Assembly: GCA_038886195.1 (NCBI GenBank)
Contig: JAVZYK010000001.1
Coordinates: 80,339 to 144,338 of the forward strand
Source: Candidatus Pacearchaeota archaeon
GTDB taxonomy: Archaea; Nanobdellota; Nanobdellia; Pacearchaeales; UBA284
Length of the DNA stretch: 64,000 nt
Direction: 5' to 3'
Positions 10,706-44,855 of the stretch are shown in pieces. Position numbers and translations under genes: made by a program. The stretch's first letter is position 1. Each line of letters starts with the position of its first letter. The notes beneath the pieces were generated by a model. It saw only the letters and a list, made by a program, of their open reading frames with translations, searched no databases and was not told the DNA's origin.

Positions 10706-10743
10706 ATAAAAAATGAAAAATAAAGAAATGCAAAAATAATAAA

Positions 10744-11406: not shown

Positions 11407-12819
11407 ATGGTGAAAAGAGGAGCGTTGTTATTAGCTGGCATTATAATCTTCTTTATTTTTGCAAGCTCATTAACATCTGCAGCAAGTTGTTATTGTGATT
11501 CTTGTGCAGATTGTACAAGTAAATTGAATAATTCTTCTTGCACAGAAGTAAAATTAACAGCAAACATAATAAACTTTGTAGGCACTTGCATTGATAATCC
11601 TGCAGGTTTCAATAACAAAGTGTTTGATTGCCAAGGATATAAAATAGATGGAGATGATCTGAGATATAATTATGGAATTTACTTAAATGGCAAGCAAAAC
11701 AATACAATAAAAAATTGTGTAATTACTGACTTTTATGTTGGAATTTATTTATGGTTTTCATGGGAAAACACCCTAACAAACAACACTGCAAGCTCAAATA
11801 ATTTTGGAATTTATTTATATTATTCATCAGACAACGAGATAACAAATGCAAATGTAAGAGAAAATGAGGAGATTGGAATTGTGTTATCCTCTACTAATAA
11901 TACTAAAATTAAAAATTGTATAATTAAAGGAAATCCTTGCGATAAGTGTATATTTGTCAAAGGAAGTGGGGCGCGTCATAACTATATTACTAAAACTGAA
12001 ATTCATTCTTGTGCAACAGGAATTTTAATTTATGATTATGGTATAGGTTCTTATGCTAGTTTAACAGTTAATCAAAGCTATATTCACGACAATACTGACC
12101 AAGGCATTAGGATTTATGGCGGTAATGAAATGGGTTTAGTTTTAATAGATAGCGTAATAACTGCCAACGGAAAAGGAGTGTATTTGGATCATCGATGGGG
12201 AGCACATAAAGATCCTAAAGGATTTCTTTACAATTCCACAATCTGTAATAATACACTTGATTTGCAAATAGATACTAAAGATAATTATGATAAAGATTGT
12301 GCTGGAAGCTATGCTAAGACAATTGGTGGCACTAACGCTAATTGTCCTAATCTTAATAATTTTTGTCCAACCTTTCCTTCTTCAGGTTGTGTTTGGCAAG
12401 GAGTTTGTTCAAGATACGTACCGGCAAAAGGTGCTTCTAGCACTTTTGAATTCCCTAACATAAATTTTTGTCCTGCAATTCCAGACGAGTGCAAAAATCA
12501 ATCACCGGATCACATTGTTTGCCGCAATAACGAGGCTTATAATTGTCAGGGTTGCGGCGGATGGTATCGTGATGTTAGTTTAGATTATATATGTAAACCA
12601 AATTATTGTTTAGGGAACTATTCGACGGGATGGGTAAAATATAGAAATCATGAGAATTGCACTTCAATTAACGATTTTTATTCGGGCTGTGTAATTGACA
12701 TTACTGGAGATGGGATTTATGATAAACTTTGTTGTCCTGTTTATGATAGTCTAAATTACAATATAGCTTTGTTTGAGCCAACATCTGATATGTACTCCTT
12801 TTGTCGAAGTGTAAAATGA
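11407..12819 (+). CDS. secreted cysteine-rich protein with right-handed parallel beta-helix (PbH1/NosD-like) repeats
   Basis: 470 aa. The N-terminus MVKRGALLLAGIIIFFIFA could be either a Sec or a class III signal peptide (KRG|A). Repeated NNxxGIYL and NxIxNC rungs, many Cys. Paralogous to the partial ORF at 62904..64000 (shared DC[QN]GYKI[DQ]GDD...KNC[VI] block). Confidence 0.65.
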   Translation: MVKRGALLLAGIIIFFIFASSLTSAASCYCDSCADCTSKLNNSSCTEVKLTANIINFVGTCIDNPAGFNNKVFDCQGYKIDGDDLRYNYGIYLNGKQNNTIKNCVITDFYVGIYLWFSWENTLTNNTASSNNFGIYLYYSSDNEITNANVRENEEIGIVLSSTNNTKIKNCIIKGNPCDKCIFVKGSGARHNYITKTEIHSCATGILIYDYGIGSYASLTVNQSYIHDNTDQGIRIYGGNEMGLVLIDSVITANGKGVYLDHRWGAHKDPKGFLYNSTICNNTLDLQIDTKDNYDKDCAGSYAKTIGGTNANCPNLNNFCPTFPSSGCVWQGVCSRYVPAKGASSTFEFPNINFCPAIPDECKNQSPDHIVCRNNEAYNCQGCGGWYRDVSLDYICKPNYCLGNYSTGWVKYRNHENCTSINDFYSGCVIDITGDGIYDKLCCPVYDSLNYNIALFEPTSDMYSFCRSVK

Positions 12820-15800
12820 GAAATATGAAAAAAATAAAAATAGAGAGAAAAATAAAAACAGAGGAATTATTTATGCTAACTTTTTTCGTGATAGCTTTTT
12901 TATTTGTCTCTTCGTTTTCAAAAGCCAATGGACTACTACACTGTACTGGTTGGGGTTTTCGGAATATTACAAATTATTGGGGCTGTTGTAATGGTAGTCA
13001 TTTTGATGGCACTAAAGGAATAGCGATGCCTTATGTGATGCAACAAACAGTTTTTTACAGCTACCATTGTTGTGGAGATAATGATGGCGTTTGTCCAGAA
13101 GATTTTAATAGCTCGCATGCTGGCGGGCGTATAAGTTGTGCTCCTAATGGAGACCCTGATTGTGGCTCGCTGCCGCTCCAATGCAACCTAACTTCTGCGA
13201 CGATAACTCCGAACTGTAGGGGCATTCCTGGGAACACTCAGGGATGTGATGTTGGAGATAATATAACTGTGACAGCGACCTTTGCGGGAAATTGTCAGGA
13301 AGTTAAGGCTCTTGAAACTAAGATTAAAGATACAAATTGTGAATTGTCTTTAGAAATTCCTTGCACAGTTAGTAGCAGTGGAAGCTGTAGTGGCGTTGCT
13401 ACTATTCGAGTAGTGCCAGATGGTTGTGAAAATAAAATAGTATATTTAAGAAATGCGACTGCATGGAATGAAACTCTTGCCGGTGCAGGACAAGTGAGGA
13501 TGGTTGTTACTTATAACGACACCCAACAACATCTTAACGGAGGTTTCAAGTTCTCTGAAAAAATTTTAAAGTTTATTGATTTGATTATATGGCCGCCGAG
13601 CGCGCTGATCCAAGTTGGAAACTTGTTTGAATGGAACTTGACAGCAGTGTTTTTCAATCAAACGAGCGGTGAGAATGTCACAAAGTATGTTGCAAATGAC
13701 GACCCTTACTCGCAGTTTTTTTATTCTAATCCGAATGTCGCGCATCATCCTGGCTCGCCTTATCCTAACAGAATCTCCAAAGGATTCTCTGCAGGCGAAA
13801 CCAATGTTGTAGGAACGTGGCCATGGCCTTGGAATTACAAACAAGACACTGCCCTATTAAAAGTTATCAATCCAACAGGTTGTGTCATATCTTTAGCAGC
13901 AATAATACCTTACTGCAGGCCTGGCGGCTGTAATGTTAGCGACAAGATCAATTTGAATGTAAAAGTCAATAGCCCTAGCTGTGATCCTGATTCAAATCCT
14001 TCAAGAATAGTTATGAAAGGACATGATTCTTCGCTTTTGTGCAATGTGGAGCTGAGTGTTGATGGAATCTATTGCGATGGCCTTGGCAACTGCAACAAAA
14101 ATTATACTATAAATTCAATTTCTGATGATTGTGCTGGCAAGACTGTCATGATTAAAGTGACTGAACTTTATAATGCAACCGGTCCTTTAGCGAGCTTGCA
14201 GGGCAACTTCGGCTCATTTCAGTTTTGGGCGCCGGCGCCTGAAGAACCGAGCTATATTACATTATGGCCTAGAGATTGGCATGCTAAAGTTGGCGATAGT
14301 GTTTCTTATGACGTTTGGGCCCATTATCCTACCAATCCTCCTAAAAATGTAACAACTGATGAATATACAAATTATAGTTCGAGCAATAACGTGGTTGCTT
14401 ATCAAATTAGTCCTAAAAACGTGTTTTATGGCAACAGTACTGGCACTACAACAATAACTGCAAGATATCCTAAAGGCTATAATTATGCTAAAGAAAATAG
14501 CACTTCACTTTATGTTTATCCTCATACTGATTGCGAGATTTTGGATGCTAATATGAGTTTTAATTGTGATGATAGTATTGGCGGCATTCCTCAATGTAAT
14601 AATGGCGACACAATTGATTTAGGAGTTGTTGTTAATCAACAATGTTATAATTTGAATATTGCAAAAATACAAATGAGAGCTCATGAAAAGTTTAATCAAG
14701 CAAATCATGGCTCTTGCAGTTTTGATATGAATGCGAGCTTTACTCAACAAGCCTGTTCCTATAATGATGGAAATTATTTCTGCCATGGAACATGGACTGT
14801 TGGAGTTCCTCCAAGTTGTCAAGGTAAAAACGTTATTGTTGATGGAGTTATAGTTTATAATTATTCAGGTAATTTTTTAGATTCAAGACAAGGCTATATA
14901 GGAAACTTTAGTTTTGTTGAAACGCCTCAGTCATTAAGAGCGATTATTGTTACTCCAAATGAAGGCGCAACATTTAATCTCTCTGAAAACCCTGTTGCTA
15001 ATTTTACACAAGCAAGCATTGGCCAGATAACTAATTGGACATGGCTTTATAGAAAGATAACAATTCCACAATCACCTTGGACAGTTCTTAGATCAACTTC
15101 AAACCCGAATGAAGCAAACATAACTAATTACGATTTTAGTTATTATGGTTGGAAAGGGGGCAATTATGATATAAACTTGACTGTTAGCAATTTAAGCTTA
15201 AGTGATGATGATATTGTTGAGATAACTTTAATTGACAACTATACGCCAATTGCCAATATAACTCGACCTTTGTGGCATGTCATACTTTATAACAATAGCG
15301 TAGTTTTTGATTCTGAATGCTTTGATCCTAACAATAATCCTTTAAACGTTACATGGTATTTTGATGATAATACTAATGTTAGCGGTCCTTATTTACAATT
15401 CAAAAATGTAACTCATATTTTTGGCCAAGCAAAACCCAATTTCTTTAGAGCATGGCTTAATGTGACTGATGGTCAAAATTCGTCAGTAGATTATGTTGAA
15501 TTTAAAATAGCTTATTGTTATCATAACAACAATTATTATTTTGCAGGTTCTTGTATTGGGCAAAATAATTTGTATTGTAATAAGAATGATTGTAATGAAT
15601 TTGGTGAATGCAATGTTGTTGCTGATTGTAGAAAATGTAATAACTGTCCAAGCAGCTATTATTGTGATGGGATGACTGGCAATTGTAGTCAAGGACCAGG
15701 ACCACAAGGCTGTCAACAATATGATCAGCAACAGTGTAACGCTCAGATAGGTTGTTATTGGGACGCTTGTAAAGCTTGTAATGATCCACAAAAACCAATT

Positions 15801-16292
15801 CGCTCTTGTTCTGATTATACTAGACCAAGTGCTTGTAATAATGACAGTACTAATTGTCAAGTAGGAATGCCTAATCATGGTTTAGGAACAGAAATTTGTG
15901 ATACATTGATTGAAACTCCTCCTGGAAGTGGCAATTATTCTTTAGTTAATAATTGTCACTGTGAATGGAATTCAAATATTAATAATTGTACTTTAGCTTA
16001 TACTTTAATTCCACAAAACCAAAATGGCGGAGGCCAGCCGCAACCAGAAGATTGCCAGTATCAAATAATAGCAGAAGATTGTGGAAGCTGTCAAGTTAGT
16101 GGAAGGGAGGGAAGAAATGTTAGTTACAAAAGAGTTTTTGGCGATCCTAATGTTTGTGTTGATCGTTCATGGTGTCAGCCTTGTGGCTTGTTGTTCAGAC
16201 CATTACCATTCTTTGAATGGTGGCAAGCCATTGTTGTAGTTGGATTGGTTGTTGTAGTTTATGCCTTTATGCTTAGAAGAAAATATTTATAA
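12816..16292 (+). CDS. giant cysteine-rich surface protein (about 1158 aa) with N-terminal signal peptide and C-terminal TM anchor
   Basis: The track start at 12801 is a TTG. ATG at 12816 overlaps the upstream stop (ATGA), with a further ATG at 12825. Signal peptide LFMLTFFVIAFLFVSSFSKANG, more than 70 Cys, many N-x-S/T sequons. The C-terminal WWQAIVVVGLVVVVYAFMLRRKYL is a single TM with a short basic tail. No enzymatic motif. Confidence 0.7.
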   Translation: MRNMKKIKIERKIKTEELFMLTFFVIAFLFVSSFSKANGLLHCTGWGFRNITNYWGCCNGSHFDGTKGIAMPYVMQQTVFYSYHCCGDNDGVCPEDFNSSHAGGRISCAPNGDPDCGSLPLQCNLTSATITPNCRGIPGNTQGCDVGDNITVTATFAGNCQEVKALETKIKDTNCELSLEIPCTVSSSGSCSGVATIRVVPDGCENKIVYLRNATAWNETLAGAGQVRMVVTYNDTQQHLNGGFKFSEKILKFIDLIIWPPSALIQVGNLFEWNLTAVFFNQTSGENVTKYVANDDPYSQFFYSNPNVAHHPGSPYPNRISKGFSAGETNVVGTWPWPWNYKQDTALLKVINPTGCVISLAAIIPYCRPGGCNVSDKINLNVKVNSPSCDPDSNPSRIVMKGHDSSLLCNVELSVDGIYCDGLGNCNKNYTINSISDDCAGKTVMIKVTELYNATGPLASLQGNFGSFQFWAPAPEEPSYITLWPRDWHAKVGDSVSYDVWAHYPTNPPKNVTTDEYTNYSSSNNVVAYQISPKNVFYGNSTGTTTITARYPKGYNYAKENSTSLYVYPHTDCEILDANMSFNCDDSIGGIPQCNNGDTIDLGVVVNQQCYNLNIAKIQMRAHEKFNQANHGSCSFDMNASFTQQACSYNDGNYFCHGTWTVGVPPSCQGKNVIVDGVIVYNYSGNFLDSRQGYIGNFSFVETPQSLRAIIVTPNEGATFNLSENPVANFTQASIGQITNWTWLYRKITIPQSPWTVLRSTSNPNEANITNYDFSYYGWKGGNYDINLTVSNLSLSDDDIVEITLIDNYTPIANITRPLWHVILYNNSVVFDSECFDPNNNPLNVTWYFDDNTNVSGPYLQFKNVTHIFGQAKPNFFRAWLNVTDGQNSSVDYVEFKIAYCYHNNNYYFAGSCIGQNNLYCNKNDCNEFGECNVVADCRKCNNCPSSYYCDGMTGNCSQGPGPQGCQQYDQQQCNAQIGCYWDACKACNDPQKPIRSCSDYTRPSACNNDSTNCQVGMPNHGLGTEICDTLIETPPGSGNYSLVNNCHCEWNSNINNCTLAYTLIPQNQNGGGQPQPEDCQYQIIAEDCGSCQVSGREGRNVSYKRVFGDPNVCVDRSWCQPCGLLFRPLPFFEWWQAIVVVGLVVVVYAFMLRRKYL

Positions 16293-16344
16293 AAAAGACT
16301 AACTTGACTGGGTAAAAAGAGGTTAATTAAAAACGAGAAAAAAA

Positions 16345-19095
16345 ATGAAAAGAAAAGAGACAAGTATGGCAATGGCAGCAATTGTGCTGTCACTTTTTAT
16401 TTTATTGTTTTCATTTAGCTTTAGTTCTGCAACTGTTACGCCAGGAACGCCATTTTTTAATTTATCTCAAACAAGTTTTGGGCCAGGGCAAGTTATTGAA
16501 GGTTTCTTAAATTTTTCTTTAACCGATCATCCTGGCAATACAATTGTTAGAGCAACTATAAATCCTGGAGCTGTGACAAAAGAAACTACTCTTTTGAATT
16601 TCTTGAAAAATGCAACCGTGACTTTCAATTGTAATCCAACCGACTGTAATATAACTTATAATGCAACTAATGCTGGAACAACAAAAACAATATCTTTAAG
16701 TCAAGAAACTGAAGCTTATTATAGTTTGGTCGCTTTTGGTTCGAATGTTCAAGTTCAGAATTTAAGTTTTACAATGCAAGGTTCTAGCAATGCGCAGCCT
16801 GTTTGTTATGAAACTCCTTTTAAAGTTGATTTGCTTGATGATGGTATTATTGATTTTGAATATAAGGAAGTTTCGGGCTATTGTCCTCAGCGTGCGAGTA
16901 ATTGTTTTGATCCCAGTGTGGCAACACAAGTTGGTTTGTTAAGCACTACGCCTTCCTGTCAGAAAATATGGCTCAACAAGACTGGTAAGGTTAATGTTAG
17001 TGCTGTGTTAAAGCGAGAGGGCGAGCCTCAAAACCACGATATTGAATTTTTAATTTATGATTCTAATGGATTATTAAAAGGTAGCTGCAGTGTTAGTGGC
17101 TGGGAAGTTCAAGAAAATTTTGCTCCTGTAAGCTGTATTATAGGCGAAGATGAATACGGACAGCCAACCGGTTTTTATATTAGTAAAGCAGATAATTATT
17201 TTGTCTGTGTTAAGGCCTTAGGCAATATTTATTCAATAAAAAAGGAATCTCAAGGAGAGATTTGTGGTTTTTATGGTAATCCGCCTTCATCTGTTTTTAC
17301 AGAAGATTATGCAATTTATGTTTCAGAAGGTAAGTTTGCACCTTTCAATGGCGAGGCTTTTTTCAATGAAACTACAGCAATAGGAACACAAAATTTAATT
17401 GCCGCAATTCAAAGCTATCTTCAAACAAAATATAGCAATAATTGTTCTAGTGGTTGTGTAATTCCAATGAGATTTATTTCATTAGCAAGCCAACAAGTTA
17501 CACTTAATAATTTAAATTTTATTTATGCTCCAGGCCCTGGGCAAAGCGGTACAATCGACCATTATTTTTATGATCTAACTGTTGTTCCGCCCAAACTTAA
17601 TATGACTCAACAACTGGTTCAATTGCGAGCATTAAATACTACTGCACCACAACAACAAGGAAGCTATAGCATTAGTGTAATGATCATTGGCGGGCCTTCA
17701 GGGTCAGCGACTTTTAGAGTTGAGCCGGTTCCTCAAGTTCATAGCGTTTATCCTTTAACAGTTATTCCAGGTCAATCAACAACGTTCCATGTTGTAGCAA
17801 CAGCTCCTGCTGGAAGACAAATTGTAAGTTACATTTGGAATTGGGGTGATGGGTCTGGTGAAATAACTACTACTGAGCCAACTGCTTCACACATTTATAA
17901 TCAAGGAAGCTATACTTTAACTGTGAAAGTCCAAGATAATGCTTCGCTTGTCGGAAGCAAAAGTTTCACTATTGTTGCCAATATAACAAAGGAATTGTTA
18001 AACACAACGATAAATTCATTACTCGCTCGAGTTAATGCAATAACTTTACAGTTCAATGCTTTAGAGCCATGGTATAGAGACGCATTGGGTTTAAACTTAT
18101 CAAATATTAATTCAACTTTGCTAACTTTCAAAACACAATTGTCAACAGCAACTCAAACACAATTGGCCTCGATGTTTGAAACAGTTAATCAATACAAGAA
18201 TCAAGTTCCTTTAAATATAACTGACTCGTTGATCTTGAGAGAGTCGCCTTATTTCGTAAACTTAGAAAATATAAATCCTCAGTATATTTCTGAAATCACT
18301 GATGAAACTTATAGCTCGAACTTGGAAGAGCAATATAAAAATACCATTGTTTTATGGCAAGAAGAAAATTTAGACTTAACTCTTAGCGGTCAAATCAAAA
18401 CATTTGTTTATGAAACAACTTCTGAAGACAAGTTAACTGTTGTTAATATAAAACTTGCTCCTAAGACAAGTTTAAACGAAGTTTATCTTGTTTTCTCTTT
18501 GCCGAGTGGCGTTAGTTATAGTAATGTTAAAATTAAGCAAGGAAATTTTGAAACAAGCGACTTGAATGATGCGATTGGCTTTACATTTTCGGATTTAAGC
18601 TCGAGTGAAACTATAAGTTTGGCATTGCCAGGCAAGCACGATTTTTCACAATTAACATTTTATGCTTCTCCAAAGCTTGCAGAATTGAAAGTTGAAAGTG
18701 GCACGATTATGCCTGGAAAAGAAAAAAAGGCGCCTTGGGGTTTGGCTATATTTTTAATGATTGTGATCGTTTTGGTTGTCATTGCTGTTTTGTGGTTTTT
18801 ATGGCGTGGTTACAGTGAAAAGCTTGAAAAAAAATTGTTTAAGAGCCCTATGGATTTATATAATTTAATGAGTTTTATTTCAGGAGCTAAGGCAAAAGGT
18901 TTGAGAAAAGATGAAATTGAAGAACAACTTTTGAAAGCAGGATGGAATAAACAACAAATTAATTACGCATGGAAAAAATTAGAAAAGCAAGAAAAAGCAA
19001 AAGGCAAGAAGGGAAAAGAAAGAGAGATTCGACCATTGGGCGTGGGCGAAGAAGTTTTTCCTTATAAAAGCATTTACAAAAGAATTAAGCACTAG
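16345..19095 (+). CDS. large secreted/surface protein (916 aa) with C-terminal TM anchor and cytoplasmic tail
   Basis: Sec-type signal peptide (MAMAAIVLSLFILLFSFSFSSA). Thr/Ser/Asn-rich with many sequons. C-terminal TM LAIFLMIVIVLVVIAVLWFLW followed by an approximately 90 aa K/E-rich tail. Confidence 0.7.
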   Translation: MKRKETSMAMAAIVLSLFILLFSFSFSSATVTPGTPFFNLSQTSFGPGQVIEGFLNFSLTDHPGNTIVRATINPGAVTKETTLLNFLKNATVTFNCNPTDCNITYNATNAGTTKTISLSQETEAYYSLVAFGSNVQVQNLSFTMQGSSNAQPVCYETPFKVDLLDDGIIDFEYKEVSGYCPQRASNCFDPSVATQVGLLSTTPSCQKIWLNKTGKVNVSAVLKREGEPQNHDIEFLIYDSNGLLKGSCSVSGWEVQENFAPVSCIIGEDEYGQPTGFYISKADNYFVCVKALGNIYSIKKESQGEICGFYGNPPSSVFTEDYAIYVSEGKFAPFNGEAFFNETTAIGTQNLIAAIQSYLQTKYSNNCSSGCVIPMRFISLASQQVTLNNLNFIYAPGPGQSGTIDHYFYDLTVVPPKLNMTQQLVQLRALNTTAPQQQGSYSISVMIIGGPSGSATFRVEPVPQVHSVYPLTVIPGQSTTFHVVATAPAGRQIVSYIWNWGDGSGEITTTEPTASHIYNQGSYTLTVKVQDNASLVGSKSFTIVANITKELLNTTINSLLARVNAITLQFNALEPWYRDALGLNLSNINSTLLTFKTQLSTATQTQLASMFETVNQYKNQVPLNITDSLILRESPYFVNLENINPQYISEITDETYSSNLEEQYKNTIVLWQEENLDLTLSGQIKTFVYETTSEDKLTVVNIKLAPKTSLNEVYLVFSLPSGVSYSNVKIKQGNFETSDLNDAIGFTFSDLSSSETISLALPGKHDFSQLTFYASPKLAELKVESGTIMPGKEKKAPWGLAIFLMIVIVLVVIAVLWFLWRGYSEKLEKKLFKSPMDLYNLMSFISGAKAKGLRKDEIEEQLLKAGWNKQQINYAWKKLEKQEKAKGKKGKEREIRPLGVGEEVFPYKSIYKRIKH

Positions 19096-21436
19096 GCTTC
19101 GGAACTTTTGGGGCTGGAGACAATTTTTTCTTTACTATTGTTTTAACAGCTGTTTTTTGTGGCATTGCCGGTTTTGCCATTGCCATGGGTTTGGGCATTG
19201 GCTTTATAGGAGCTTGAGCTGTTTGAGGCATTGTTCTAGTAGTAATTGATGGCAATCCTCTTGGCGGCATGCCTCTAGGTGGAATTCCAAAACCATATTC
19301 AATTGTTGGAGGAGCCGCTTTTGGCTTGCCTTTAATTTTTATTTTGCCTGTTTTGATAAGATAGAACAGTGCTAAAATAATTACGACGATAATTATTATA
19401 ATTAAAATTGTTGTTGGAAAACCACCTTTTTTCTTGCATTCGCCCAAGCAGCATCTTGAAACATCAGATGCTTGTTTAATTGTGCCTTTACAAGTCATGC
19501 TAGCATTACATGGCACACCTCTTTGTGCTGAACATGATTTTAAACATTGACCTTCACAACATTTCAATGCATCGCTTGTTTCATAACTATTGCCACCAAC
19601 ACAATTTTCATCTGTTTCACATTTATTATAATTACAAGTTTTAGGAATGCACCTGCCGCCTTGTATGCAACAAGTGGTTAAGCCATTGGTGTCAGAGGCA
19701 TTTACAAGAACGCCATCTTTACAATCTTCATCACTAGAACAAATTTCGCCACCTTTTTGCTGGCAAGTTTGTGGTGCTTCAGTACAATAGGCTGTTTGAC
19801 AACAATATAAAGTATCGCTTGCTTGAATCCATTTATCTTGCAAGCAAGAATAGCCAGAATTAGGATCACAATAGGAGCCATTAGCTTGCTGGCAAGTTAA
19901 TGTTGCTGTCGAGCAAATTCCTTTACAACAATAAGGCGAGTCACTGGAATAGATGAAAGGAACTATTCTTCCTTGACTTGTACATTCTTGGCCAAGTCCA
20001 CAAACTGTGCCGCCTATTTCGCTAACACATAATGAAATGCTATAGTTTTTACAACAAACTCCGCTTTGGCAACTATAAGGAACTTGGGCTTCTGTGTTTG
20101 AGCAACTTTGTTTGCATTCTCCATATTTCATTTCACAATTAAAGCTTGAAGTTAAATTACAGCACTCTAAAGTTTCAGAACAATAATAGCTTAAAATTGA
20201 TCCATTTAAAACACTACAGTTTGAGACACAATTGAAGCCATAGATTTCACATTCGGTGCGCCATTCGAAATTTGGCCAAACTCCATAAAGCAAAATGGCT
20301 GTTTCTCTAATGTTATCACAACCAGGACATTCCCATGAACCGGCATTAGTTCCAGTTTTTATCTGTTGCTGTAATAATTTTTCTTTAAGTTTTGTTATAT
20401 TTGCATTGATTGTAGAGCCGGTAATTGAAGCAAGGCCCGTGTCATGATATTTATTGTATGCTGTATTGTTAGCAACTATTAAGCCATCTGTACCTTGCAA
20501 TAAAGCAATTGTTTCAGCATAGTTTTGCTGAGAAGTTAATTTATAAAGAATTGCTTCTGGAAGGAATTTTTTATTTTCATTTGCTTTCATAACAAGATAA
20601 GGAATAAAAATTCTTGAAATACTGGGTTGATTAGCAAAAGCATAAGCTGTCCATAAAGTCGCTTCATAATCACAATTGCCCATATTAGCAATACATTTTG
20701 TTATTAGCTTTAATGAAATCACCTCTAAAGGTTGAGCACTTAAGGTTGAACTTACGACATAATATTCTTTTTGTACTCCTGTTTTTTCAAAAAGAAAATT
20801 TCCCATAAAACTGTCGTTACAAGTTATATTGAATTCTTTTTCAAAACATTGTTGGCTCGGGTTTAATTGAAGCCAATACGTTGCATTACTAAAACATTCT
20901 GTGCTACTTAAACTAGAAACTTGGCCTTTTTTATCAAACTCGACAGAAATTTCTGTTGTATCATAGCGGATCATACAGAGTAGATTATTGTTTTGTGGCT
21001 GTGTTAACTGCAAAAGCCAATTACCTCCGATTGCTATTGTAGGTGTAATTGTATTGTTCAGAAGCCATTCGCTTGCTTTGCTTGAATCTTTATTTACAGA
21101 ATCAAGAACAATTTTGGCAAGAGCTGTGTCGAAGGCATTACAACCTGAAGAGGGCCAGCAAGTTCCATTATTATAAGATTTTTGTAATAAAGATCTTATA
21201 GAAGCATCGATTTGATTTTGTGTCAGCTTTTCTTTTAAAGCAAGAAAAGAAAAAACATGTTGTTGTAAATTTAAATTTTGCCATCTTCCGACTGCTTTGC
21301 CTTGAAGCCATGTGTAAGCTTTCTTTATTTGTAAGGTTTCGTCTTGCTGCTGAGCTAAAACTGAAATAGAAAAAATAAAAAAAGAGATGAGAATTATTGC
21401 TATAAAAATTAATGAAATTCCTCTTTTCGAAACCAT
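19085..21436 (-). CDS. large cysteine-rich surface protein (783 aa) with possible class III signal peptide, C-terminal TM and Pro-rich tail
   Basis: N-terminus MVSKRGISLIFIAIILISFFIF. The C-terminal third has tandem Cys-rich modules (xSDxxxCCxGxC repeats). TM (TTILIIIIIVVIILALFYLI) followed by a Pro/Met/Lys-rich tail (PPRGMPPRGLP...KPMPKPMAMAKPAMP). The 3' end overlaps the 3' end of the convergent 916-aa gene by 11 nt. Confidence 0.7.
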   Translation of the reverse strand: MVSKRGISLIFIAIILISFFIFSISVLAQQQDETLQIKKAYTWLQGKAVGRWQNLNLQQHVFSFLALKEKLTQNQIDASIRSLLQKSYNNGTCWPSSGCNAFDTALAKIVLDSVNKDSSKASEWLLNNTITPTIAIGGNWLLQLTQPQNNNLLCMIRYDTTEISVEFDKKGQVSSLSSTECFSNATYWLQLNPSQQCFEKEFNITCNDSFMGNFLFEKTGVQKEYYVVSSTLSAQPLEVISLKLITKCIANMGNCDYEATLWTAYAFANQPSISRIFIPYLVMKANENKKFLPEAILYKLTSQQNYAETIALLQGTDGLIVANNTAYNKYHDTGLASITGSTINANITKLKEKLLQQQIKTGTNAGSWECPGCDNIRETAILLYGVWPNFEWRTECEIYGFNCVSNCSVLNGSILSYYCSETLECCNLTSSFNCEMKYGECKQSCSNTEAQVPYSCQSGVCCKNYSISLCVSEIGGTVCGLGQECTSQGRIVPFIYSSDSPYCCKGICSTATLTCQQANGSYCDPNSGYSCLQDKWIQASDTLYCCQTAYCTEAPQTCQQKGGEICSSDEDCKDGVLVNASDTNGLTTCCIQGGRCIPKTCNYNKCETDENCVGGNSYETSDALKCCEGQCLKSCSAQRGVPCNASMTCKGTIKQASDVSRCCLGECKKKGGFPTTILIIIIIVVIILALFYLIKTGKIKIKGKPKAAPPTIEYGFGIPPRGMPPRGLPSITTRTMPQTAQAPIKPMPKPMAMAKPAMPQKTAVKTIVKKKLSPAPKVPKPSA

Positions 21437-21505
21437 GTTTTTTTAAAGTTATTAAGCTTTAAAAAACTTTTTAAATATCAAAAGCTTGGGATATTGACGA
21501 AAAAA

Positions 21506-22303
21506 ATGTTAAGCAAAAGAGGCAATAATCAAGACAAAAAAGGCCAAGTCACTTTGTTTATAATTATTGCTATTGTCATTGTGGCCATAATTATTCTTGC
21601 CTTGATTCTTGTGCCGAAACTTTTTCCTAAAAAAATTCCAGCTGCGAAAATAACTGATCCTGAAGCTTACATTCAAGATTGTATAAATCTTGCGCTAGAG
21701 CCCATGGTTGAAACTCTCGCAAGCCAAGGAGGTTATCTTGAATTAGGCAATTGTATTTTTTATAAAAATGTTTGCAGACATTATTTATGTTATGTTACAA
21801 TTCCTTACACAGCCTGTGTTAATCAAGAACCATTACTTAAAGAAAAAATTGAATCAATTTTAAAACAAAAATTGCAGCAAGATAATGTTGTTTCGAATTG
21901 CATTAATAAATTTCAAGAAGCTGCCTCGAAACAAGGCTATGATGTTTCAACATGCAGCTCGCCAACATTTTCAGTAAATTTGACAGAAGGCAAAGTTAAT
22001 GTGCCAATTAAATGTGAAATGACTTTAGTTAAGGGCGAAGAAGTCAAGAGAATAGAAAAAATTAATCCTTATTTGCAATGGCCTTTATATGAGTTTGTGC
22101 TGCTTGCTAAAGAAATCATAAATGACGAGATTACAAACACTGATTTTGATCAAGTTGCTTATATGTTAAGACATTATTGGGTTGAAATTGAAAAGTTCAG
22201 AACAAGCGATGATTCAAAAATTTATACTCTTCGCGAGAGAGCGAGTGGCAAAGAATTTGTCTTTGCTGTGAGAAACTATGTATTGCCGCCTGGACTGATG
22301 TAA
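21506..22303 (+). CDS. pilin-like protein with archaeal class III (prepilin-type) signal peptide
   Basis: The track start at 21494 is a TTG. The first ATG at 21506 gives MLSKRGNNQDKKGQVTLFIIIAIVIVAIIILALILV, i.e. a charged leader, then KG|Q, then a 24-residue hydrophobic stretch, which is the FlaK/PibD substrate pattern. About 265 aa, with a Cys-containing globular domain after the hydrophobic segment. Confidence 0.55.
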   Translation: MLSKRGNNQDKKGQVTLFIIIAIVIVAIIILALILVPKLFPKKIPAAKITDPEAYIQDCINLALEPMVETLASQGGYLELGNCIFYKNVCRHYLCYVTIPYTACVNQEPLLKEKIESILKQKLQQDNVVSNCINKFQEAASKQGYDVSTCSSPTFSVNLTEGKVNVPIKCEMTLVKGEEVKRIEKINPYLQWPLYEFVLLAKEIINDEITNTDFDQVAYMLRHYWVEIEKFRTSDDSKIYTLRERASGKEFVFAVRNYVLPPGLM

Positions 22304-22336
22304 AATGAAAAATAAAAAAAAGAAAAAGAAAACAAC

Positions 22337-25300
22337 ATGTGGAAAGGAAAAACTCTAAAAATGATAAAGAATAAAAAGAAGATAAAAGAAATTGATTTAA
22401 TAATTTCATTATTTCTTATAGTTTTGACAATTTTGATGCCAATAACCTTTACAGCTTTACAACCTGAAATTGATCTTGTTAAAGGAGAGATAAAACCAAA
22501 TCCTGTTATTGATTCTTTTGCTTCTGTTTTTTCAAAAGTCATTGGATTTTTTGATGTTGTGCCGAGTGTTATGGCACAAGATCTGGGTTGTTGTGAAATT
22601 ATGAAAAATGGAGCAAAATGTCAAATTAGTACTGAAGATGAATGTCAATCACAATGGCATCAAGGCCAGAGTTGTGATACAATTTGTCAAATTGGTTGTT
22701 GTATTGATTCACAAGGCTTTTGTTCTAAGCAAGCGATTTCAACACAATGTCTTGTTCCGCCTGCATTAAAATTTGTTCAAAATGATCCAAATTGTCAACA
22801 AGACATTCTATGTAAAATGGGTTGTTGTACTGTTGGTTATCAAAAAATTTGGACAACTAACTTAACTTGTTCTAATATTTATCATGGTGTCTGGGACGGG
22901 AATGTTCCTGACGAATTGACATGCATTCAACAAGCTTCTCAAGAACAAAGAGGTTGTTGCAGAAGTTATGCTGGCTGTGAATACATTACGGGAGCTGAAT
23001 GTTCAAGCAAATCAGGAAGTTTCTTTCCTAATATGAAATGTTATAGTGGCGTTCCTGGATGCAATTGCCAATTAAATTCTGAAGGAAAATGTGTTGAAGG
23101 ATTTCCTGATTTATACAAAGCCGATAGTTGCGGAAATGCTTATATTGATGAAATTAAAGAGCAATGCTCTGCAAACGGAGGATTTTGCAATGCAAGTTCA
23201 AACAAATGTCAATCTGGAACCTGTTTTGATGTTTATGATAATTACAACAAAAACAATGGAGATTTTACAGCGCTGCCTGGAAGACATGGACAATTAAGAG
23301 AGAGCGGGGAGTCATGGTGTGTTTATGACAGGCCGGATTTGGTTTGGGGAAATGGGACAGAGCCAGCCGGTTCAAGGCATTGGAGATGTTACTGTGTGAA
23401 TGGTATTGAAACATGCGAACCTGCTTCTGATTACAGACAGGAGATATGCGCTGAGACCTTGTTTGATATAAATAAAGGGAAATTAGAAGATATAAATTAT
23501 ACACAAAGATATTCTAGTTCAAATTATAGAAGTGTAGCGGTTTTTGTTGGCAATCCATGGAGAACGTGTATTTTACTTAATGACGAGGAAAAATGCAATG
23601 CAAATCCTGGCTGTTTTTGGATTACTGGTTTTGCGCCCCTTATAGGGAAAAACGCAGTAGATATCTTTAGGATTGAAGATGGCAAAGAGAAGGGGTGGGC
23701 CGGAGTAAGGGCGGATAGTTTAGCAGAAATCGACAGCGGAGACCCACAATTGGGCACTGTAGTTGGGCCGCCTAGATGCCTTCCAAAAATTCCACCAGGG
23801 CTTGATGTTGGTTTTTTTACTCAATTCCAAAACAAAGAGACTGTCTGCAAGCTGGGGAGTTATTCTTGCACAGTCAAAGACAGACTTTCAGGTGGAGATG
23901 AAAATCCAGAATGTGATGACAATGAATGGATGGAGTTGATGGCTCACAGATGCAGAGCAATTGCAGATTGTGGTGTTTGGTTTAATTATTTACATGCTCC
24001 TTCCGCGAGTCCTCCAGTATACACTGCAACGCAAGATGGAATTCTTATAGCTGAAGTGACTCCTGAATATGATTCCGAAGGAAACGTTAGTGCAAAAGAG
24101 ATTGAAATAAACTATAAACTGTTAGATAATAATTTTACAAAGTTTGAAGAATATAGGGAGATAATAAATGATCCTTCCAAAACTTTTGATATGAAAAGGG
24201 AAAAGGGGGGAGAAGGCGGTTGGGGTTGGGCATTGTTGGTTGATGTTATAGGTTACCTGGTGGCGGCGTTATTTCCAGGAGAGTCGGGTTGGGGTTTGGG
24301 TTTAAGTTTTGAGAAGTTCCGCTTGGTTGGTGCTTGGTGGAGCGGAGAAGAAGTTGGTTTACTTAATGCATACACAGGTATCGCTATTATCTGTTTCGTT
24401 ATTGCGTGGGTTATTCCGGGCCCTCAGTGGGCTAAAGAAACTTTCAGAACATTGGGTTATGGCTTTGCAGCCAAAGGCATTGCAACAGCGCTTGGAGCTT
24501 CAACTCCAGTAGGATGGATTATAGGGGCAGTAGCACTGATTACTTATGCTTTGTTCTTCGCGGTTTGGGATGTTGATCATATGGTTGTTGAATGCTATCC
24601 TTATATGCCGCCTGTGGGCGGAGATGATTGCGAAAAATGCAATGATGATCCAATGAGGCCTTGTTCTAAGTACAGATGCGAATCACTTGGAACTGCTTGT
24701 GTTTGGAAGGGCACAACAGCTGATGGAGTTCCTTGCGAACAGAGCCCTGAACAAGAGTGCGGAATTTGCCAGAAAGAAAATAATGATGGAGCACCTCCTT
24801 TGATTACAAAAGTCTCTGTAAAAGAAGAAGGTTATAGTGTTTCGCCTTCACAGCCAGGAATGCCTCCATCAACAATAGTTATTTCAAAAAATGGCGGCAT
24901 TGATCCCTGGAGTTCTTTCACCGTTACACTTGAGTTTAACGAAAGAGCAGTTTGTAAATGGTATAATAAGCACACTTTGAGCTTCAGTGACATGCCTCCG
25001 GTTTGGTTTGATAGTAATACTTGGAAATACAGTCAGACAATGACAATCCCTGTAGGACAATTGCTTCAAGGCTATAATACTGTTCAGATTTATTTGAGAT
25101 GCGCCGATAGCTATATGAATGCTAATATTGGTGAATATATTTTGCAATTTAACGTTTCAACAACTGACTTAACACCGCCGGTTGTTTTGGGCACAGATAG
25201 AGATTATTATAATAAATTTTCATATGGCGTGACTGAATTGCCTTTATCGATTTATGTTAATGAGATGGCTAAATGCAGATGGGCGAAGCAAGATGTTGAC

Positions 25301-26047
25301 TATAGCTTGATGGGCGGCGAGTGCAGTACAACATTAACACAAACTGGCTTTAAGTGTAACACAACTTTAACTGGCTTACAATCAGAGCCGCCTGGAATTG
25401 CAAATACCTTTTATATTAGATGCAATGACACTTCAGGCAATGTTATGCAGCAATCTTATCAATTAATTCTTTATCCTACTTTGCCTTTAAAAATTATCAA
25501 TATTATACCAGAAAACGGCGCTCACGTTAAAGGTTGTGAGATTAGTGGCGTGGAGCTTGAAGTTGAAACAGCTGAAGGAGCCGAGAATGGCAAGGCAATA
25601 TGCTACTGGCAAAATGGCACTCAATGGCAAAGATTTACTGTTACGAATGATGTTGTTCATTTAACTAATTTATCTGCTGTGAGCCAGACTGTAAATATTA
25701 AATGTTATGATTCTGCATTGAATGTTGCTCAGAATTCAACAAGCTTTACAGTTGAGGCAGATCAAACACCGCCAACCATAACAAGAATCTTTAAAGATGG
25801 CTCGCAACTTGTTATAAGGACTGATGAAGATGCTACATGTGCTTATCATTATGCTTGGGGACAGAAAATTAATAATTGTAATTTTGTTGCTAACAATACA
25901 ATGCAAGCAAGAAAATTTACTACAACTGGCGGAACTGAACATAGGACAGAATGGGACGACGAGCCTTGGTATGTTAAGTGTTATGACAGTTGTGGCAATG
26001 GAATAAACAATCCTTGCACAATAGTTTATCCTTCTGAACTTGAATAA
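22337..26047 (+). CDS. giant cysteine-rich membrane protein (1236 aa) with a central multi-TM segment
   Basis: N-terminal signal anchor, then an approximately 600 aa Cys-rich region with repeated GCC/CxxxxxxC modules. A central hydrophobic block (GWGWALLVDVIGYLVAALF..., IAIICFVIAWVIPG, IIGAVALITYALFFAVW) predicts 3-4 TM helices. A further approximately 480 aa Cys-containing domain follows. Confidence 0.7.
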   Translation: MWKGKTLKMIKNKKKIKEIDLIISLFLIVLTILMPITFTALQPEIDLVKGEIKPNPVIDSFASVFSKVIGFFDVVPSVMAQDLGCCEIMKNGAKCQISTEDECQSQWHQGQSCDTICQIGCCIDSQGFCSKQAISTQCLVPPALKFVQNDPNCQQDILCKMGCCTVGYQKIWTTNLTCSNIYHGVWDGNVPDELTCIQQASQEQRGCCRSYAGCEYITGAECSSKSGSFFPNMKCYSGVPGCNCQLNSEGKCVEGFPDLYKADSCGNAYIDEIKEQCSANGGFCNASSNKCQSGTCFDVYDNYNKNNGDFTALPGRHGQLRESGESWCVYDRPDLVWGNGTEPAGSRHWRCYCVNGIETCEPASDYRQEICAETLFDINKGKLEDINYTQRYSSSNYRSVAVFVGNPWRTCILLNDEEKCNANPGCFWITGFAPLIGKNAVDIFRIEDGKEKGWAGVRADSLAEIDSGDPQLGTVVGPPRCLPKIPPGLDVGFFTQFQNKETVCKLGSYSCTVKDRLSGGDENPECDDNEWMELMAHRCRAIADCGVWFNYLHAPSASPPVYTATQDGILIAEVTPEYDSEGNVSAKEIEINYKLLDNNFTKFEEYREIINDPSKTFDMKREKGGEGGWGWALLVDVIGYLVAALFPGESGWGLGLSFEKFRLVGAWWSGEEVGLLNAYTGIAIICFVIAWVIPGPQWAKETFRTLGYGFAAKGIATALGASTPVGWIIGAVALITYALFFAVWDVDHMVVECYPYMPPVGGDDCEKCNDDPMRPCSKYRCESLGTACVWKGTTADGVPCEQSPEQECGICQKENNDGAPPLITKVSVKEEGYSVSPSQPGMPPSTIVISKNGGIDPWSSFTVTLEFNERAVCKWYNKHTLSFSDMPPVWFDSNTWKYSQTMTIPVGQLLQGYNTVQIYLRCADSYMNANIGEYILQFNVSTTDLTPPVVLGTDRDYYNKFSYGVTELPLSIYVNEMAKCRWAKQDVDYSLMGGECSTTLTQTGFKCNTTLTGLQSEPPGIANTFYIRCNDTSGNVMQQSYQLILYPTLPLKIINIIPENGAHVKGCEISGVELEVETAEGAENGKAICYWQNGTQWQRFTVTNDVVHLTNLSAVSQTVNIKCYDSALNVAQNSTSFTVEADQTPPTITRIFKDGSQLVIRTDEDATCAYHYAWGQKINNCNFVANNTMQARKFTTTGGTEHRTEWDDEPWYVKCYDSCGNGINNPCTIVYPSELE

Positions 26048-27187: not shown

Positions 27188-27219
27188 AAAAGAGAAAAGA
27201 ATAAATACTATGAATTTTT

Positions 27220-37847: not shown

Positions 37848-37902
37848 TTTTTTTTTTAAGAAAGAAATAAAATTTATAACTTTTAATATTTTTCTATATT
37901 CT

Positions 37903-38961: not shown

Positions 38962-38964
38962 AAA

Positions 38965-40452: not shown

Positions 40453-40485
40453 AATTTTTGTAAGAATCGTAAAATTATAAAAGCA

Positions 40486-41157: not shown

Positions 41158-41179
41158 TTTAAACTATTCTTTTATTATT

Positions 41180-43374: not shown

Positions 43375-43395
43375 TTTTGATTCTTTATTTAATTT

Positions 43396-44670: not shown

Positions 44671-44678
44671 TTTTTTAT

Positions 44679-44855
44679 TTAACTTAAACTTTTTATTTCT
44701 GCATTTATTTCATTATTTATTTTTTCAAGTTCCTGTCTCAGCTCATTAAATTTCTTTTCATCTCCTAGTTGTTTTGATTGTTCTAAATCAAATAATATTT
44801 GTTCTGCAGAAACAACAAGTTGCATTAAAAAAGTTATTTTTTGTAAAGAGATCAT
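44679..44855 (-). CDS. 58-aa coiled-coil ORF translationally coupled to the secretion ATPase
   Basis: Absent from the track (under 60 aa). Its ATG overlaps the ATPase TGA stop (ATGA). It translates to MISLQKITFLMQLVVSAEQILFDLEQSKQLGDEKKFNELRQELEKINNEINAEIKSLS, with no TM. Its stop lies 8 nt before the TadC ATG. Confidence 0.4.
   Translation of the reverse strand: MISLQKITFLMQLVVSAEQILFDLEQSKQLGDEKKFNELRQELEKINNEINAEIKSLS

What the first reader, a model, noticed from the sequence alone, without database searches (positions are those of the whole stretch)
11407..26047. About 14.6-kb accessory island of six large cysteine-rich surface proteins with no recognisable enzymatic domains
Six consecutive genes of 470, about 1158, 916, 783, about 265 and 1236 aa all carry N-terminal signal or anchor sequences. 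Most carry C-terminal single TM anchors with short cytoplasmic tails. They are extraordinarily Cys-rich, with tandem CxxxC/GCC modules and dense N-x-S/T sequons, and the 1236-aa protein has a central TM bundle. I recognised no catalytic motifs. The island sits between housekeeping blocks and is immediately preceded by a HEPN/MNT pair. In a small-genome DPANN-type archaeon, this much coding capacity on surface proteins suggests a host-attachment/adhesion apparatus that has not been described as a system. Composition also looks somewhat GC-richer than the flanking genes; this may simply reflect Cys/Gly/Pro/Trp codons.
Basis: partly seen in the sequence, partly recalled or inferred. Interest (0 to 1): 0.85.

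Follow-up and report, generated by a model that had tools for sequence, protein, structure and literature searches.

The report
Conserved Pacearchaeota surface-protein and prepilin cluster
The six genes do encode large, mostly cysteine-rich cell-surface proteins of a tiny Pacearchaeota archaeon, but they are a vertically inherited block whose core is a prepilin-like protein paired with a giant membrane protein, a pair found in at least 577 related species-representative genomes and never characterised.

Summary
Six intact ORFs lie at 11407-26047. Four have 5.3-6.6% Cys against 0.98% in flanking genes. One (916 aa) is not Cys-rich, and one is on the minus strand.

"Accessory island" is not supported. 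Related Pacearchaeota/Woesearchaeota genomes keep g3-g6 in the same order (g2 in most), beside the same GTPase and OapB genes. The extra GC lies at codon position 2, so it reflects amino-acid composition; GC3 matches the flanks.

The conserved core is g5 plus g6, usually with g4 nearby. At least 577 matches in species-representative genomes encode g6 relatives. The usual form of the cluster also carries a second g5, a split g6 and four small proteins.

g5 and those four small families share a conserved [KR][G/A/S]-Q motif followed by a hydrophobic helix. This is the archaeal class III (prepilin) signal pattern. The window also encodes a type IV filament ATPase and two platform proteins 16.5 kb away, with no pilin genes beside them.

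My best reading is a type-IV-filament-related surface apparatus that presents the disulfide-rich g6 ectodomains, surrounded by anchored glycoproteins (g2-g4). Attachment is plausible but untested. No Pfam, NCBIfam or PDB relative explains g5 or the g6 N-domain. I rate it a new variant of a known kind, with moderate to high interest.

The parts
11407..12819 (+). g1: 470-aa secreted protein. It has a right-handed beta-helix (residues ~72-212) and a Cys-rich C-terminal half. It is a peripheral, non-conserved member.
   Evidence: Pfam Beta_helix E 2e-21 and NosD E 2e-20. TIGR03804 parallel beta-helix repeat. 6.4% Cys. Only the beta-helix part has relatives, and these are never next to g2-g6.
12816..16292 (+). 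g2: ~1158-aa heavily N-glycosylatable surface protein. It has repeated Cys-bearing modules, a sub-threshold PKD-like domain, a Cys-rich stalk, a C-terminal TM anchor and a 5-aa tail. It is the fastest-evolving member.
   Evidence: ORF. The start ATG overlaps the g1 stop. 41 sequons against 16.1 expected, z = 7. PKD_4 E 8e-5, below cut-off. TM at 1140-1158. About 29% identity to the L003 ortholog.
16345..19095 (+). g3: 916-aa PKD-domain surface protein with only 1.3% Cys, a C-terminal TM (800-818) and a ~98-aa cytoplasmic tail.
   Evidence: PKD E 1.7e-10 at residues 471-543. TM. 40-49% identical orthologs at the same position in L001 and L003.
19085..21436 (-). g4: 783-aa protein. It has a Sec-type signal and a ~370-aa helical domain with weak terpene-cyclase-like (alpha/alpha toroid) repeats. 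About seven 6-Cys modules follow (396-667), then a TM (676-694) and a Pro/Lys-rich tail. It is transcribed divergently from g5.
   Evidence: ORF. Family alignment A5. Profile against PDB: tick carboxypeptidase inhibitor (two beta-defensin-like domains) E 0.009, and squalene-hopene cyclase E 0.04; both are weak. g4-like genes lie upstream of the cluster in most loci.
21494..22303 (+). g5: 265-269-aa prepilin-like protein. Its N-terminus is KKG|QVTLFIIIAIVIVA, followed by a compact alpha+beta ectodomain with no solved-structure relative. It is the most conserved member and lies directly upstream of g6.
22337..26047 (+). g6: 1228-1236-aa membrane protein. In order: signal or anchor; four GCC Cys modules (85-250); a beta-rich Cys core (251-560) with motifs GESWCVYD, VGSRHWR and EPCADYRQ; a four-helix TM bundle (~629-743); a CxxC-containing knot (746-815); and four or five Ig-like domains (816-1236). 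In other lineages a second copy is split into an N-half and a C-half.
   Evidence: 43 homologs, all 'hypothetical'. A1 has 31 invariant Cys. AF2 pLDDT 75.5. Foldseek PDB hits only tandem Ig/Fn3 proteins. PDB profile search finds nothing. Split paralogs. 577 or more matches in species-representative genomes.
42529..46438 (-). Type IV filament machinery: ATPase (44852-46438) and two platform proteins (43396-44670, 42529-43374). No pilin genes lie next to it. It is the inferred assembly engine for g5-type prepilins.
   Evidence: Pfam T2SSE E 4.7e-33; T2SSF E 2.2e-13 and E 3.6e-13. The neighbouring ORFs lack class III motifs. The link to g5 is an inference, not shown.

Best explanation
The block is a native, vertically inherited cell-envelope gene cluster of a Pacearchaeota archaeon.

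Shown:
- Its conserved core is the g5-g6 pair, with g4 nearby.
- The pair belongs to a cluster found across Pacearchaeota, Woesearchaeota and 'Nanoarchaeota' MAGs. The usual form is g4(-) | PCNA | g5 g6 g5' g6N' g6C' pA pB pC pD.
- g5, g5' and pA-pD all carry the archaeal class III (prepilin) signal pattern.
- g6 has two large Cys-rich ectodomains joined by four TM helices.

Inferred mechanism:
- A prepilin peptidase cuts g5 between G17 and Q18.
- The type IV filament ATPase and platform encoded at 42.5-46.4 kb extract g5 from the membrane and assemble it, together with pA-pD-type subunits where these are present. The product would be a short pilus or pseudopilus.
- g5 pairs 1:1 with g6. It positions or presents the disulfide-stabilised g6 ectodomains at the cell surface.
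- g2, g3 and g4 are C-terminally anchored, N-glycosylated coat or adhesin proteins around this structure. g1 is a lineage-specific beta-helix accessory.
- The likely role is contact with other cells or surfaces. The ligand is unknown.
For: - Native origin and synteny.
- Breadth: 577 or more g6-positive places in species-representative genomes, the best 78 loci all labelled Pace-, Woese- or Nanoarchaeota or unclassified archaeon apart from one short contig labelled Bathyarchaeota. The g5 family has 8077 clusters at 50% identity. The pB family has 1235 proteins.
- Prepilin motif: [KR][GAS] directly before the helix in g5 130/136 (Q at +1 in 121), pA 28/29, pC 19/20, pD 17/19 and pB 16/20. Controls: g4 11/40 and g6 43/91, with no consistent +1 residue. 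The -1 residue is restricted to G, A or S, as prepilin peptidase substrates require (established knowledge; Makarova 2016, PMC4858521).
- Tight g5-to-g6 coupling: median gap 1 bp, and each g6 or g6N copy has its own g5.
- An ATPase and two platform genes lie in the window without cognate pilins. This two-platform layout is reported for archaeal TFF system 1/4A in DPANN (bioRxiv 10.64898/2026.04.22.720090).
- Makarova 2016 noted that cognate pilins of nanoarchaeal ATPases were not identified. The same paper describes Thermoproteales T4P loci with Cys-rich, C-terminally anchored S-layer-like proteins plus large adhesin-like proteins.
- Extracellular placement: signal sequences, conserved Cys, sequon enrichment, and Ig/PKD/beta-helix domains.
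Against: - No pilin HMM (Pfam or NCBIfam) matches g5 or pA-pD.
- PDB sequence hits to archaellin and pilin N-termini are not significant (E 0.34 and 0.53).
- No ATPase or platform gene lies within 10 kb of the cluster in any of 83 loci.
- No prepilin peptidase is in the window.
- pA-pD are absent from the 64-kb window and from the flanks of all window-type loci.
- The g6 ectodomains are fairly conserved (49-61% among close relatives). That is not typical of host-specific adhesins.
- There are no experimental data of any kind.
Confidence: 0.5

Rival explanations
1. This is a plain cell-envelope coat (S-layer-like) with no filament. g2-g4 and g6 are the structural wall glycoproteins of this lineage. 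g5 is an uncleaved, membrane-anchored partner or chaperone of g6, and its conserved G-Q is a packing or interaction motif.
For: - Core, vertically inherited and broadly conserved.
- C-terminal TM anchors and sequon enrichment, as in archaeal S-layer glycoproteins.
- The g6 ectodomains are conserved rather than hypervariable.
- No pilin HMM or fold match.
- The secretion ATPase is never adjacent.
Against: Five or six neighbouring families share the same [KR][G/A/S]-Q-hydrophobic N-terminus, while g4 and g6 do not. That is hard to explain without prepilin processing. The genome also keeps an ATPase and two platform genes that otherwise have no substrates nearby.
Confidence: 0.25
2. This is an extracellular scavenging or enzyme set. 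The beta-helix of g1 acts as a polysaccharide lyase or hydrolase, and the alpha/alpha-toroid of g4 binds or processes a substrate. The other proteins tether these activities to the cell.
For: Beta-helix/NosD match in g1. Weak terpene-cyclase-like repeats in g4. DPANN depend on scavenged compounds, and large extracellular lytic proteins are reported in Pace- and Woesearchaeota (Castelle 2021, PMC8204110).
Against: No catalytic family passes threshold. The match to Pect-lyase_RHGA_epim is sub-threshold (E 0.064). The g4 hits have E 0.04-4. g1 is not conserved with the cluster. This reading does not explain g5 and g6, which are the core.
Confidence: 0.1
3. This is a horizontally acquired accessory adhesion island.
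For: GC is higher than in the flanks. A toxin-antitoxin-like MNT gene lies at the left edge. g1 and g2 are poorly conserved.
Against: The same order and flanks recur in seven related genomes. GC3 (0.22-0.28 against 0.228±0.039) and four-fold-site GC are native. There are no repeats, tRNA or integrase at the edges. The core genes are present across the whole clade.
Confidence: 0.05
4. This is a remnant of an integrated virus or plasmid that encodes envelope or fusion-like glycoproteins.
For: Large Cys-rich membrane glycoproteins resemble viral envelope proteins in a general way. In other lineages RHH and HVO_A0114-like small genes flank the cluster.
Against: No relative in 2.9 million viral contigs. 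No PHROG hits. There are no replication, integrase or capsid genes. The chromosomal position is fixed across deep divergence.
Confidence: 0.02

Closest known systems
Archaeal type IV filament (TFF) loci with minor pilins, Cys-rich S-layer-like proteins and large adhesin-like proteins (Thermoproteales clades 4B/4D/4E; Epd/system 1 pili; Makarova 2016, PMC4858521; bioRxiv 10.64898/2026.04.22.720090)
   Same: Several neighbouring proteins carry class III-type N-termini. Large surface proteins with a signal peptide or C-terminal anchor have many conserved cysteines. An ATPase and two platform genes are in the genome.
   Different: The prepilin-like cluster is never next to the ATPase or platform genes. 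None of its families matches known pilin arCOG/Pfam-type models. The giant four-TM g6 protein and the g5 ectodomain fold have no counterpart. The cluster is restricted to Pacearchaeota, Woesearchaeota and 'Nanoarchaeota' MAGs.
Bacterial type IVa pilus minor-pilin/PilY1 tip module and the type II secretion pseudopilus (GspH-K)
   Same: A set of about four or five small prepilin-like proteins is encoded beside a ~1200-aa non-pilin surface protein. This implies a priming or tip complex rather than a major filament.
   Different: g6 has a TM bundle and no vWA or beta-propeller domain. There is no sequence or fold similarity. The signal type is archaeal, with Q at +1 and no conserved E5 except an EE in pD.
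Sulfolobus bindosome (surface proteins with class III signals assembled by BasEF)
   Same: Globular extracellular proteins of several hundred residues carry prepilin-type signals. They probably stay close to the cell surface rather than forming long fibres.
   Different: There are no solute-binding domains or ABC transporter genes, and the partner protein g6 is unrelated.
Archaeal S-layer and surface glycoproteins with C-terminal TM anchors
   Same: g2, g3 and g4 have a Sec signal, Ig/PKD-like domains, enriched N-glycosylation sequons and a single C-terminal TM.
   Different: Cys content is extreme. g3 and g4 have long cytoplasmic tails. There is no match to known S-layer families, and no lattice evidence.
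Tick carboxypeptidase inhibitor / beta-defensin-like 6-Cys domains
   Same: The g4 repeats follow a C-x6-C-x5-C-x12-C-x5-CC-type spacing and align with both TCI domains (E 0.009).
   Different: The match is dominated by compositional bias (bias 18.4 of 17.7 bits). There are about seven tandem copies in an archaeal membrane protein. No function can be transferred.

Membership tests
Archaeal class III signal peptide (type IV prepilin-like) proteins - g5 | A short basic N-region, a small residue (G/A/S) at -1, then a ~20-residue hydrophobic helix starting at +1 | tested here: met
   KKG|QVTLFIIIAIVIVA. 130/136 family members have [KR][GAS] before the helix, with Q at +1 in 121. AF2 predicts a helix at 16-43.
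Archaeal class III signal peptide (type IV prepilin-like) proteins - g5 | Match to a curated pilin or archaellin N-terminal model, or significant similarity to a solved pilin | tested here: not met
   No Pfam or NCBIfam pilin family. Archaellin 9eq7 E 0.34 and pilin 6w8u E 0.53.
Archaeal class III signal peptide (type IV prepilin-like) proteins - g5 | Pilin fold: a long alpha-1 helix packed on an antiparallel beta-sheet | tested here: inconclusive
Archaeal class III signal peptide (type IV prepilin-like) proteins - g5 | Cleavage by a prepilin peptidase (PibD/FlaK/EppA) | not testable with these tools
   No peptidase gene was found among the window ORFs scanned against Pfam.
Type IV filament system (ATPase + platform + pilins + peptidase) | Secretion ATPase and platform protein present | tested here: met
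   T2SSE at 44852-46438; T2SSF at 43396-44670 and 42529-43374.
Type IV filament system (ATPase + platform + pilins + peptidase) | Pilin genes genomically or functionally linked to the machinery | tested here: not met
   The gap in the window is 16.5 kb. No T2SSE or T2SSF lies within 10 kb of the cluster in 83 loci. A functional link is not testable here.
Horizontally acquired genomic island | Atypical synonymous composition, patchy presence among relatives, and mobility genes or repeats at the borders | tested here: not met
   GC3 and four-fold-site GC are native. Synteny is conserved. There are no tandem repeats, no tRNA or integrase at the edges, and no viral hits.
PilY1-type pilus tip adhesin - g6 | vWA-like N-domain and C-terminal beta-propeller; no membrane span | tested here: not met
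   No Pfam or PDB match. The model shows Cys knots, four TM helices and Ig-like domains.
Archaeal S-layer/surface glycoprotein - g2, g3, g4 | Sec signal, extracellular beta-rich domains, N-glycosylation sequons and a C-terminal membrane anchor | tested here: met
   g4 family N-termini are Sec-like rather than class III.
Archaeal S-layer/surface glycoprotein - g2, g3, g4 | Forms a 2-D lattice, or is the dominant envelope protein | not testable with these tools
   This needs cryo-ET or proteomics.

The most novel reading that the evidence does not exclude
g5, g6 and, in most lineages, g5', the split g6 and pA-pD make up an undescribed organelle derived from the type IV filament. It would be specific to the Pacearchaeota/Woesearchaeota radiation. 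A short pseudopilus of clade-specific prepilins would carry or operate a giant four-TM, disulfide-rich protein. These prepilins would be the 'missing' cognate pilins of nanoarchaeal secretion ATPases, and the structure would be the cell-contact or host-contact machine of the most widespread uncultured DPANN lineages.
Probability: 0.3. Interest if true: 0.8.

Novelty: new variant of a known kind. Interest (0 to 1): 0.6.

Why it matters
Pacearchaeota and Woesearchaeota are among the most abundant uncultured archaea. Nothing is known about how they touch hosts or surfaces.

This cluster takes up about 2% of a ~0.6-Mb genome and is kept across the whole radiation. Its families have no Pfam or NCBIfam model and no solved-structure relative. 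The g5 family alone has more than 8000 clusters at 50% identity.

Recognising g5 and pA-pD as prepilin-like gives three things:
- concrete candidate substrates for the orphan type IV filament ATPases of these genomes;
- specific targets (g5, g6) for proteomics, cryo-ET labelling and enrichment-culture work;
- a marker gene pair for the clade.

It also corrects the "accessory island" idea: this is core envelope biology.

Tried and rejected
- Pfam, NCBIfam, PHROGs and PADLOC scans of all six proteins gave only beta-helix (g1) and PKD (g3; g2 below cut-off).
- The PDB profile search with the g6 family found nothing.
- Foldseek of the full g6 model was dominated by generic tandem Ig/Fn3 hits with TM-scores of 0.13 or less.
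- A profile of the mature N-terminus of g5 against PDB did not discriminate pilins from other TM helices.
- The FlaFind-like hits in g1 and g4 were rejected as class III signals. The KRG is not conserved in the g4 family, and the N-termini look Sec-type.
- HMMs of pA-pD found nothing in the window.
- The pB profile search could not show whether the window's genome carries pA-pD elsewhere, because only the top 120 of 1235 hits were listed.
- The exact-sequence look-up of g6 failed because the deposited protein starts 8 residues later.
- The viral-contig scan was negative.
- The metagenome scan with g1 found only partial beta-helix relatives.
- The HEPN identity of the 177-aa upstream protein could not be confirmed.
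- There are no tandem DNA repeats in the block.
- Five literature searches found no description of this cluster. The nearest statements are generic (PMC6393860, PMC8204110, PMC4858521).
Full report
**What is there.** The window is archaeal and AT-rich, about 30% GC. It carries split rpoB, TrmB regulators, OapB/OapC, PAC2 and aminoacyl-tRNA synthetases. The 1236-aa protein is 100% identical to a 'Candidatus Pacearchaeota archaeon' MAG protein on a 620-kb contig, so the DPANN assignment is right.

Six intact ORFs fill 11407-26047. I call them g1 to g6:
- g1: 470 aa, plus strand.
- g2: 1158-1163 aa, plus strand.
- g3: 916 aa, plus strand.
- g4: 783 aa, minus strand.
- g5: 265-269 aa, plus strand.
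- g6: 1228-1236 aa, plus strand.

The g2 ATG overlaps the g1 stop codon as ATGA. g3 and g4 converge and overlap by 11 nt. g4 and g5 diverge from a 57-69-nt AT-rich spacer. g5 and g6 are 33 nt apart.

**Checking the observation.** Cys content is 6.4% (g1), 5.3% (g2), 6.6% (g4) and 5.4% (g6), against 0.98% in 27 flanking genes. g5 has 3.0% and g3 has 1.3%.

g6 has four GCC modules. g4 has seven CC pairs arranged in about seven 6-Cys repeats.

N-glycosylation sequons exceed composition-matched shuffles strongly in g2 (41 against 16, z = 7) and modestly in g3 and g4 (z = 2.7). They do not in g1, g5 or g6.

C-terminal anchors exist in g2, g3 and g4. Only g2 has a short tail.

The g6 TM bundle is real. 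AlphaFold2 on a 33-sequence alignment (pLDDT 75.5) gives four helices at about 629-645, 678-692, 697-718 and 725-743. They lie between a beta-rich Cys-knotted N-domain and four or five Ig-like domains.

Recognisable domains are few: a right-handed beta-helix in g1, a PKD domain in g3, and a sub-threshold PKD-like match in g2. No enzyme, phage or defence family matches the six proteins.

The upstream MNT is confirmed. Its partner is not recognisable as HEPN.

**Not an accessory island.** The GC excess (0.33-0.39 against a flank mean of 0.32) lies at codon position 2: 0.39-0.44 in five of the six genes, against 0.307±0.033 in the flanks. GC3 is 0.22-0.28 against 0.228±0.039, and GC at four-fold sites is also within the genome's range apart from the short g5 (0.36). 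The excess follows from more Cys, Gly, Ser, Thr, Asn and Pro, and fewer Lys, Ile, Leu and Glu.

Related genomes keep g3-g4(-)-g5-g6 in the same order and strands: loci L001/L010 (complete genome CP061211.1), L003, L006, L007, L009, L011 and L044. Four of them also show g2. Where the contig extends further, GTPase and OapB follow directly; OapC, PAC2 and ArgRS were also seen in the two loci read in full. Identities in L001 and L003 are g5 58-67%, g3 40-49%, g4 47%, g6 35-44% and g2 about 29%.

There are no tandem repeats, no relatives in viral contigs, and no tRNA or integrase at the edges.

g1 is the exception. Only its beta-helix part has relatives, and these are never beside g2-g6.

**The conserved core and its wider context.** The 78 loci kept are labelled Pacearchaeota, Woesearchaeota, Nanoarchaeota or unclassified archaeon. 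One short contig is labelled Bathyarchaeota and is probably mis-binned.

I called ORFs in 83 loci and labelled them with family HMMs. This shows a recurrent arrangement:

g4-like(-) | PCNA | (RHH) g5 g6 g5' g6N' g6C' pA(~165 aa) pB(~310) pC(~175) pD(~165) | HVO_A0114-like(-)

Here g6N' and g6C' are the two halves of g6 as separate genes. The N-half has a Sec signal and the Cys-rich ectodomain. The C-half has the TM bundle and the Ig domains. g6 therefore consists of two modules that also occur as separate genes.

A g5-like gene ends less than 400 bp upstream of at least 104 of 133 g6/g6N genes, with a median gap of 1 bp. The window's sublineage has a reduced form, with one g5-g6 pair plus g2 and g3. 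It lacks pA-pD nearby.

**Prepilin-like proteins.** The g5 family alignment has an invariant Q18 and A26 and a nearly invariant G17, in the motif KKG-QVTLFIIIAIVIVA.

Counts of [KR][G/A/S] directly before the hydrophobic helix:
- g5: 130/136, with Q at +1 in 121.
- pA: 28/29.
- pC: 19/20.
- pD: 17/19; its mature end would be QEEMVGF.
- pB: 16/20.
- Controls: g4 11/40 and g6 43/91, with no consistent +1 residue.

A basic residue, a small residue at -1 and a hydrophobic helix from +1 define the archaeal class III signal that prepilin peptidases cut (established knowledge; PMC4858521). Five or six adjacent genes sharing it is the usual signature of a type IV filament locus.

The same window encodes a secretion ATPase and two platform proteins at 42529-46438, with no pilin genes beside them. 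A two-platform layout is described for archaeal TFF systems 1 and 4A in DPANN. Makarova et al. 2016 noted that cognate pilins for nanoarchaeal ATPases could not be found. The same paper describes Thermoproteales T4P loci with Cys-rich, C-terminally anchored S-layer-like proteins and large adhesin-like proteins.

**Limits of that inference.**
- No curated pilin model matches g5 or pA-pD.
- The best PDB sequence hits of g5 profiles are an archaellin (E 0.34) and a pilin (E 0.53). Neither is significant.
- The ATPase and platform genes are never within 10 kb of the cluster.
- No prepilin peptidase is in the window.

**Other domain clues.**
- The g4 family profile weakly matches tick carboxypeptidase inhibitor, which is two beta-defensin-like domains (E 0.009, with heavy Cys bias).
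- In its N-terminal ~370 residues it weakly matches squalene-hopene and terpene cyclases (E 0.04-4). This suggests an alpha/alpha-toroid domain followed by about seven small disulfide modules.
- The g4 modules resemble the g6 GCC modules only weakly (E 0.001).
- The g6 ectodomains are better conserved than its TM and linker region: 49-61% against 30% among close relatives. This points to a conserved partner or structural role rather than a rapidly diversifying adhesin.
- g2 is the fast-evolving, most glycosylated member, and probably the most exposed.

**Mechanism.** Three things are shown: a native and widely conserved surface-protein cluster, a tight g5-g6 pairing, and prepilin-type N-termini in g5 and four neighbouring families. 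The mechanism below is inferred.

I propose that a prepilin peptidase processes g5. The type IV filament ATPase and platform then assemble it into a short pilus or pseudopilus, together with pA-pD-type subunits where these are present. This structure pairs with and presents the disulfide-rich g6 ectodomains. g2, g3 and g4 form the surrounding anchored glycoprotein coat.

The function is probably contact with cells or surfaces. Confidence in this model is about 0.5.

The main rival is a filament-free envelope coat in which g5 is an uncleaved partner of g6 (0.25). Minor rivals are enzyme scavenging (0.1), a horizontally acquired island (0.05) and a virus remnant (0.02).

**Novelty.** I found no paper describing this cluster. 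The closest statements are generic. Castelle 2021 describes a module of 51 Pace/Woese-specific families, mostly of unknown function. Makarova 2019 suggests that DPANN dark-matter proteins with signal peptides located next to FlaI/TadC are diverse pilins.

The families are large and unmodelled. g5 has 8077 clusters at 50% identity, and pB has 1235 proteins. I rate the finding a new variant of a known kind, namely type-IV-filament-associated surface protein clusters. Its giant four-TM partner protein and the g5 ectodomain fold have no known relatives. Interest is 0.6.

Noticed in passing
window 6705-7394 (-): A 229-aa protein with a full GGDEF diguanylate-cyclase domain (Pfam E 3e-39) in a Pacearchaeota genome. 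To my knowledge c-di-GMP signalling is rare in archaea, so this may be a bacterial acquisition.
   Followed up: no
window 42529-46438 (-): A type IV filament operon with one secretion ATPase and two T2SSF platform genes. No pilin genes lie next to it.
   Followed up: partly
window 26801-27600 (+); loci L002, L004, L012-L015 and others: The cluster always sits beside replication genes. In the window's lineage these are the origin-associated OapB/OapC. In most other lineages they are PCNA and, in the loci read in full, primase. This conserved neighbourhood is unexplained.
   Followed up: partly
window 10172-11313 (+): The MNT nucleotidyltransferase (10744-11313) matches PADLOC candidate systems PDC-S09 and PDC-M05A. 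Its 177-aa upstream partner is not recognisable as HEPN by any library. Makarova 2019 notes that HEPN-MNT genes sit in housekeeping contexts in DPANN.
   Followed up: partly
window 48284-49651 (-): Another surface protein of 455 aa, with a Sec signal, an NPCBM_assoc/FixG_C-type Ig-like domain and a C-terminal TM anchor. It lies about 1.8 kb from the filament ATPase gene.
   Followed up: no
window 37711-42457: A run of membrane glycosyltransferases (GT2-GtrA fusion, an Alg9-like GT-C protein, GT2) lies between the surface-protein block and the filament operon. These are candidates for glycosylating g2-g4.
   Followed up: no
window 55416-55832 (-): A 138-aa protein matches the 'putative phage metallopeptidase' family (Pfam PF18894, E 1e-23), next to ribosomal protein genes.
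   Followed up: no
L001 13512-14324 (+); L011; L004: The cluster varies between lineages. A DUF7847 multi-TM gene follows g6 in CP061211.1. L011 has two tandem g5-g6 pairs. L004 has two full g6 paralogs in tandem.
   Followed up: partly
L009 (JAIMAA010000075.1): An 8.9-kb contig carrying g3-g6 (g5 81% identical to the window's) is deposited as 'Candidatus Bathyarchaeota archaeon'. It is probably a mis-binned Pacearchaeota contig.
   Followed up: no
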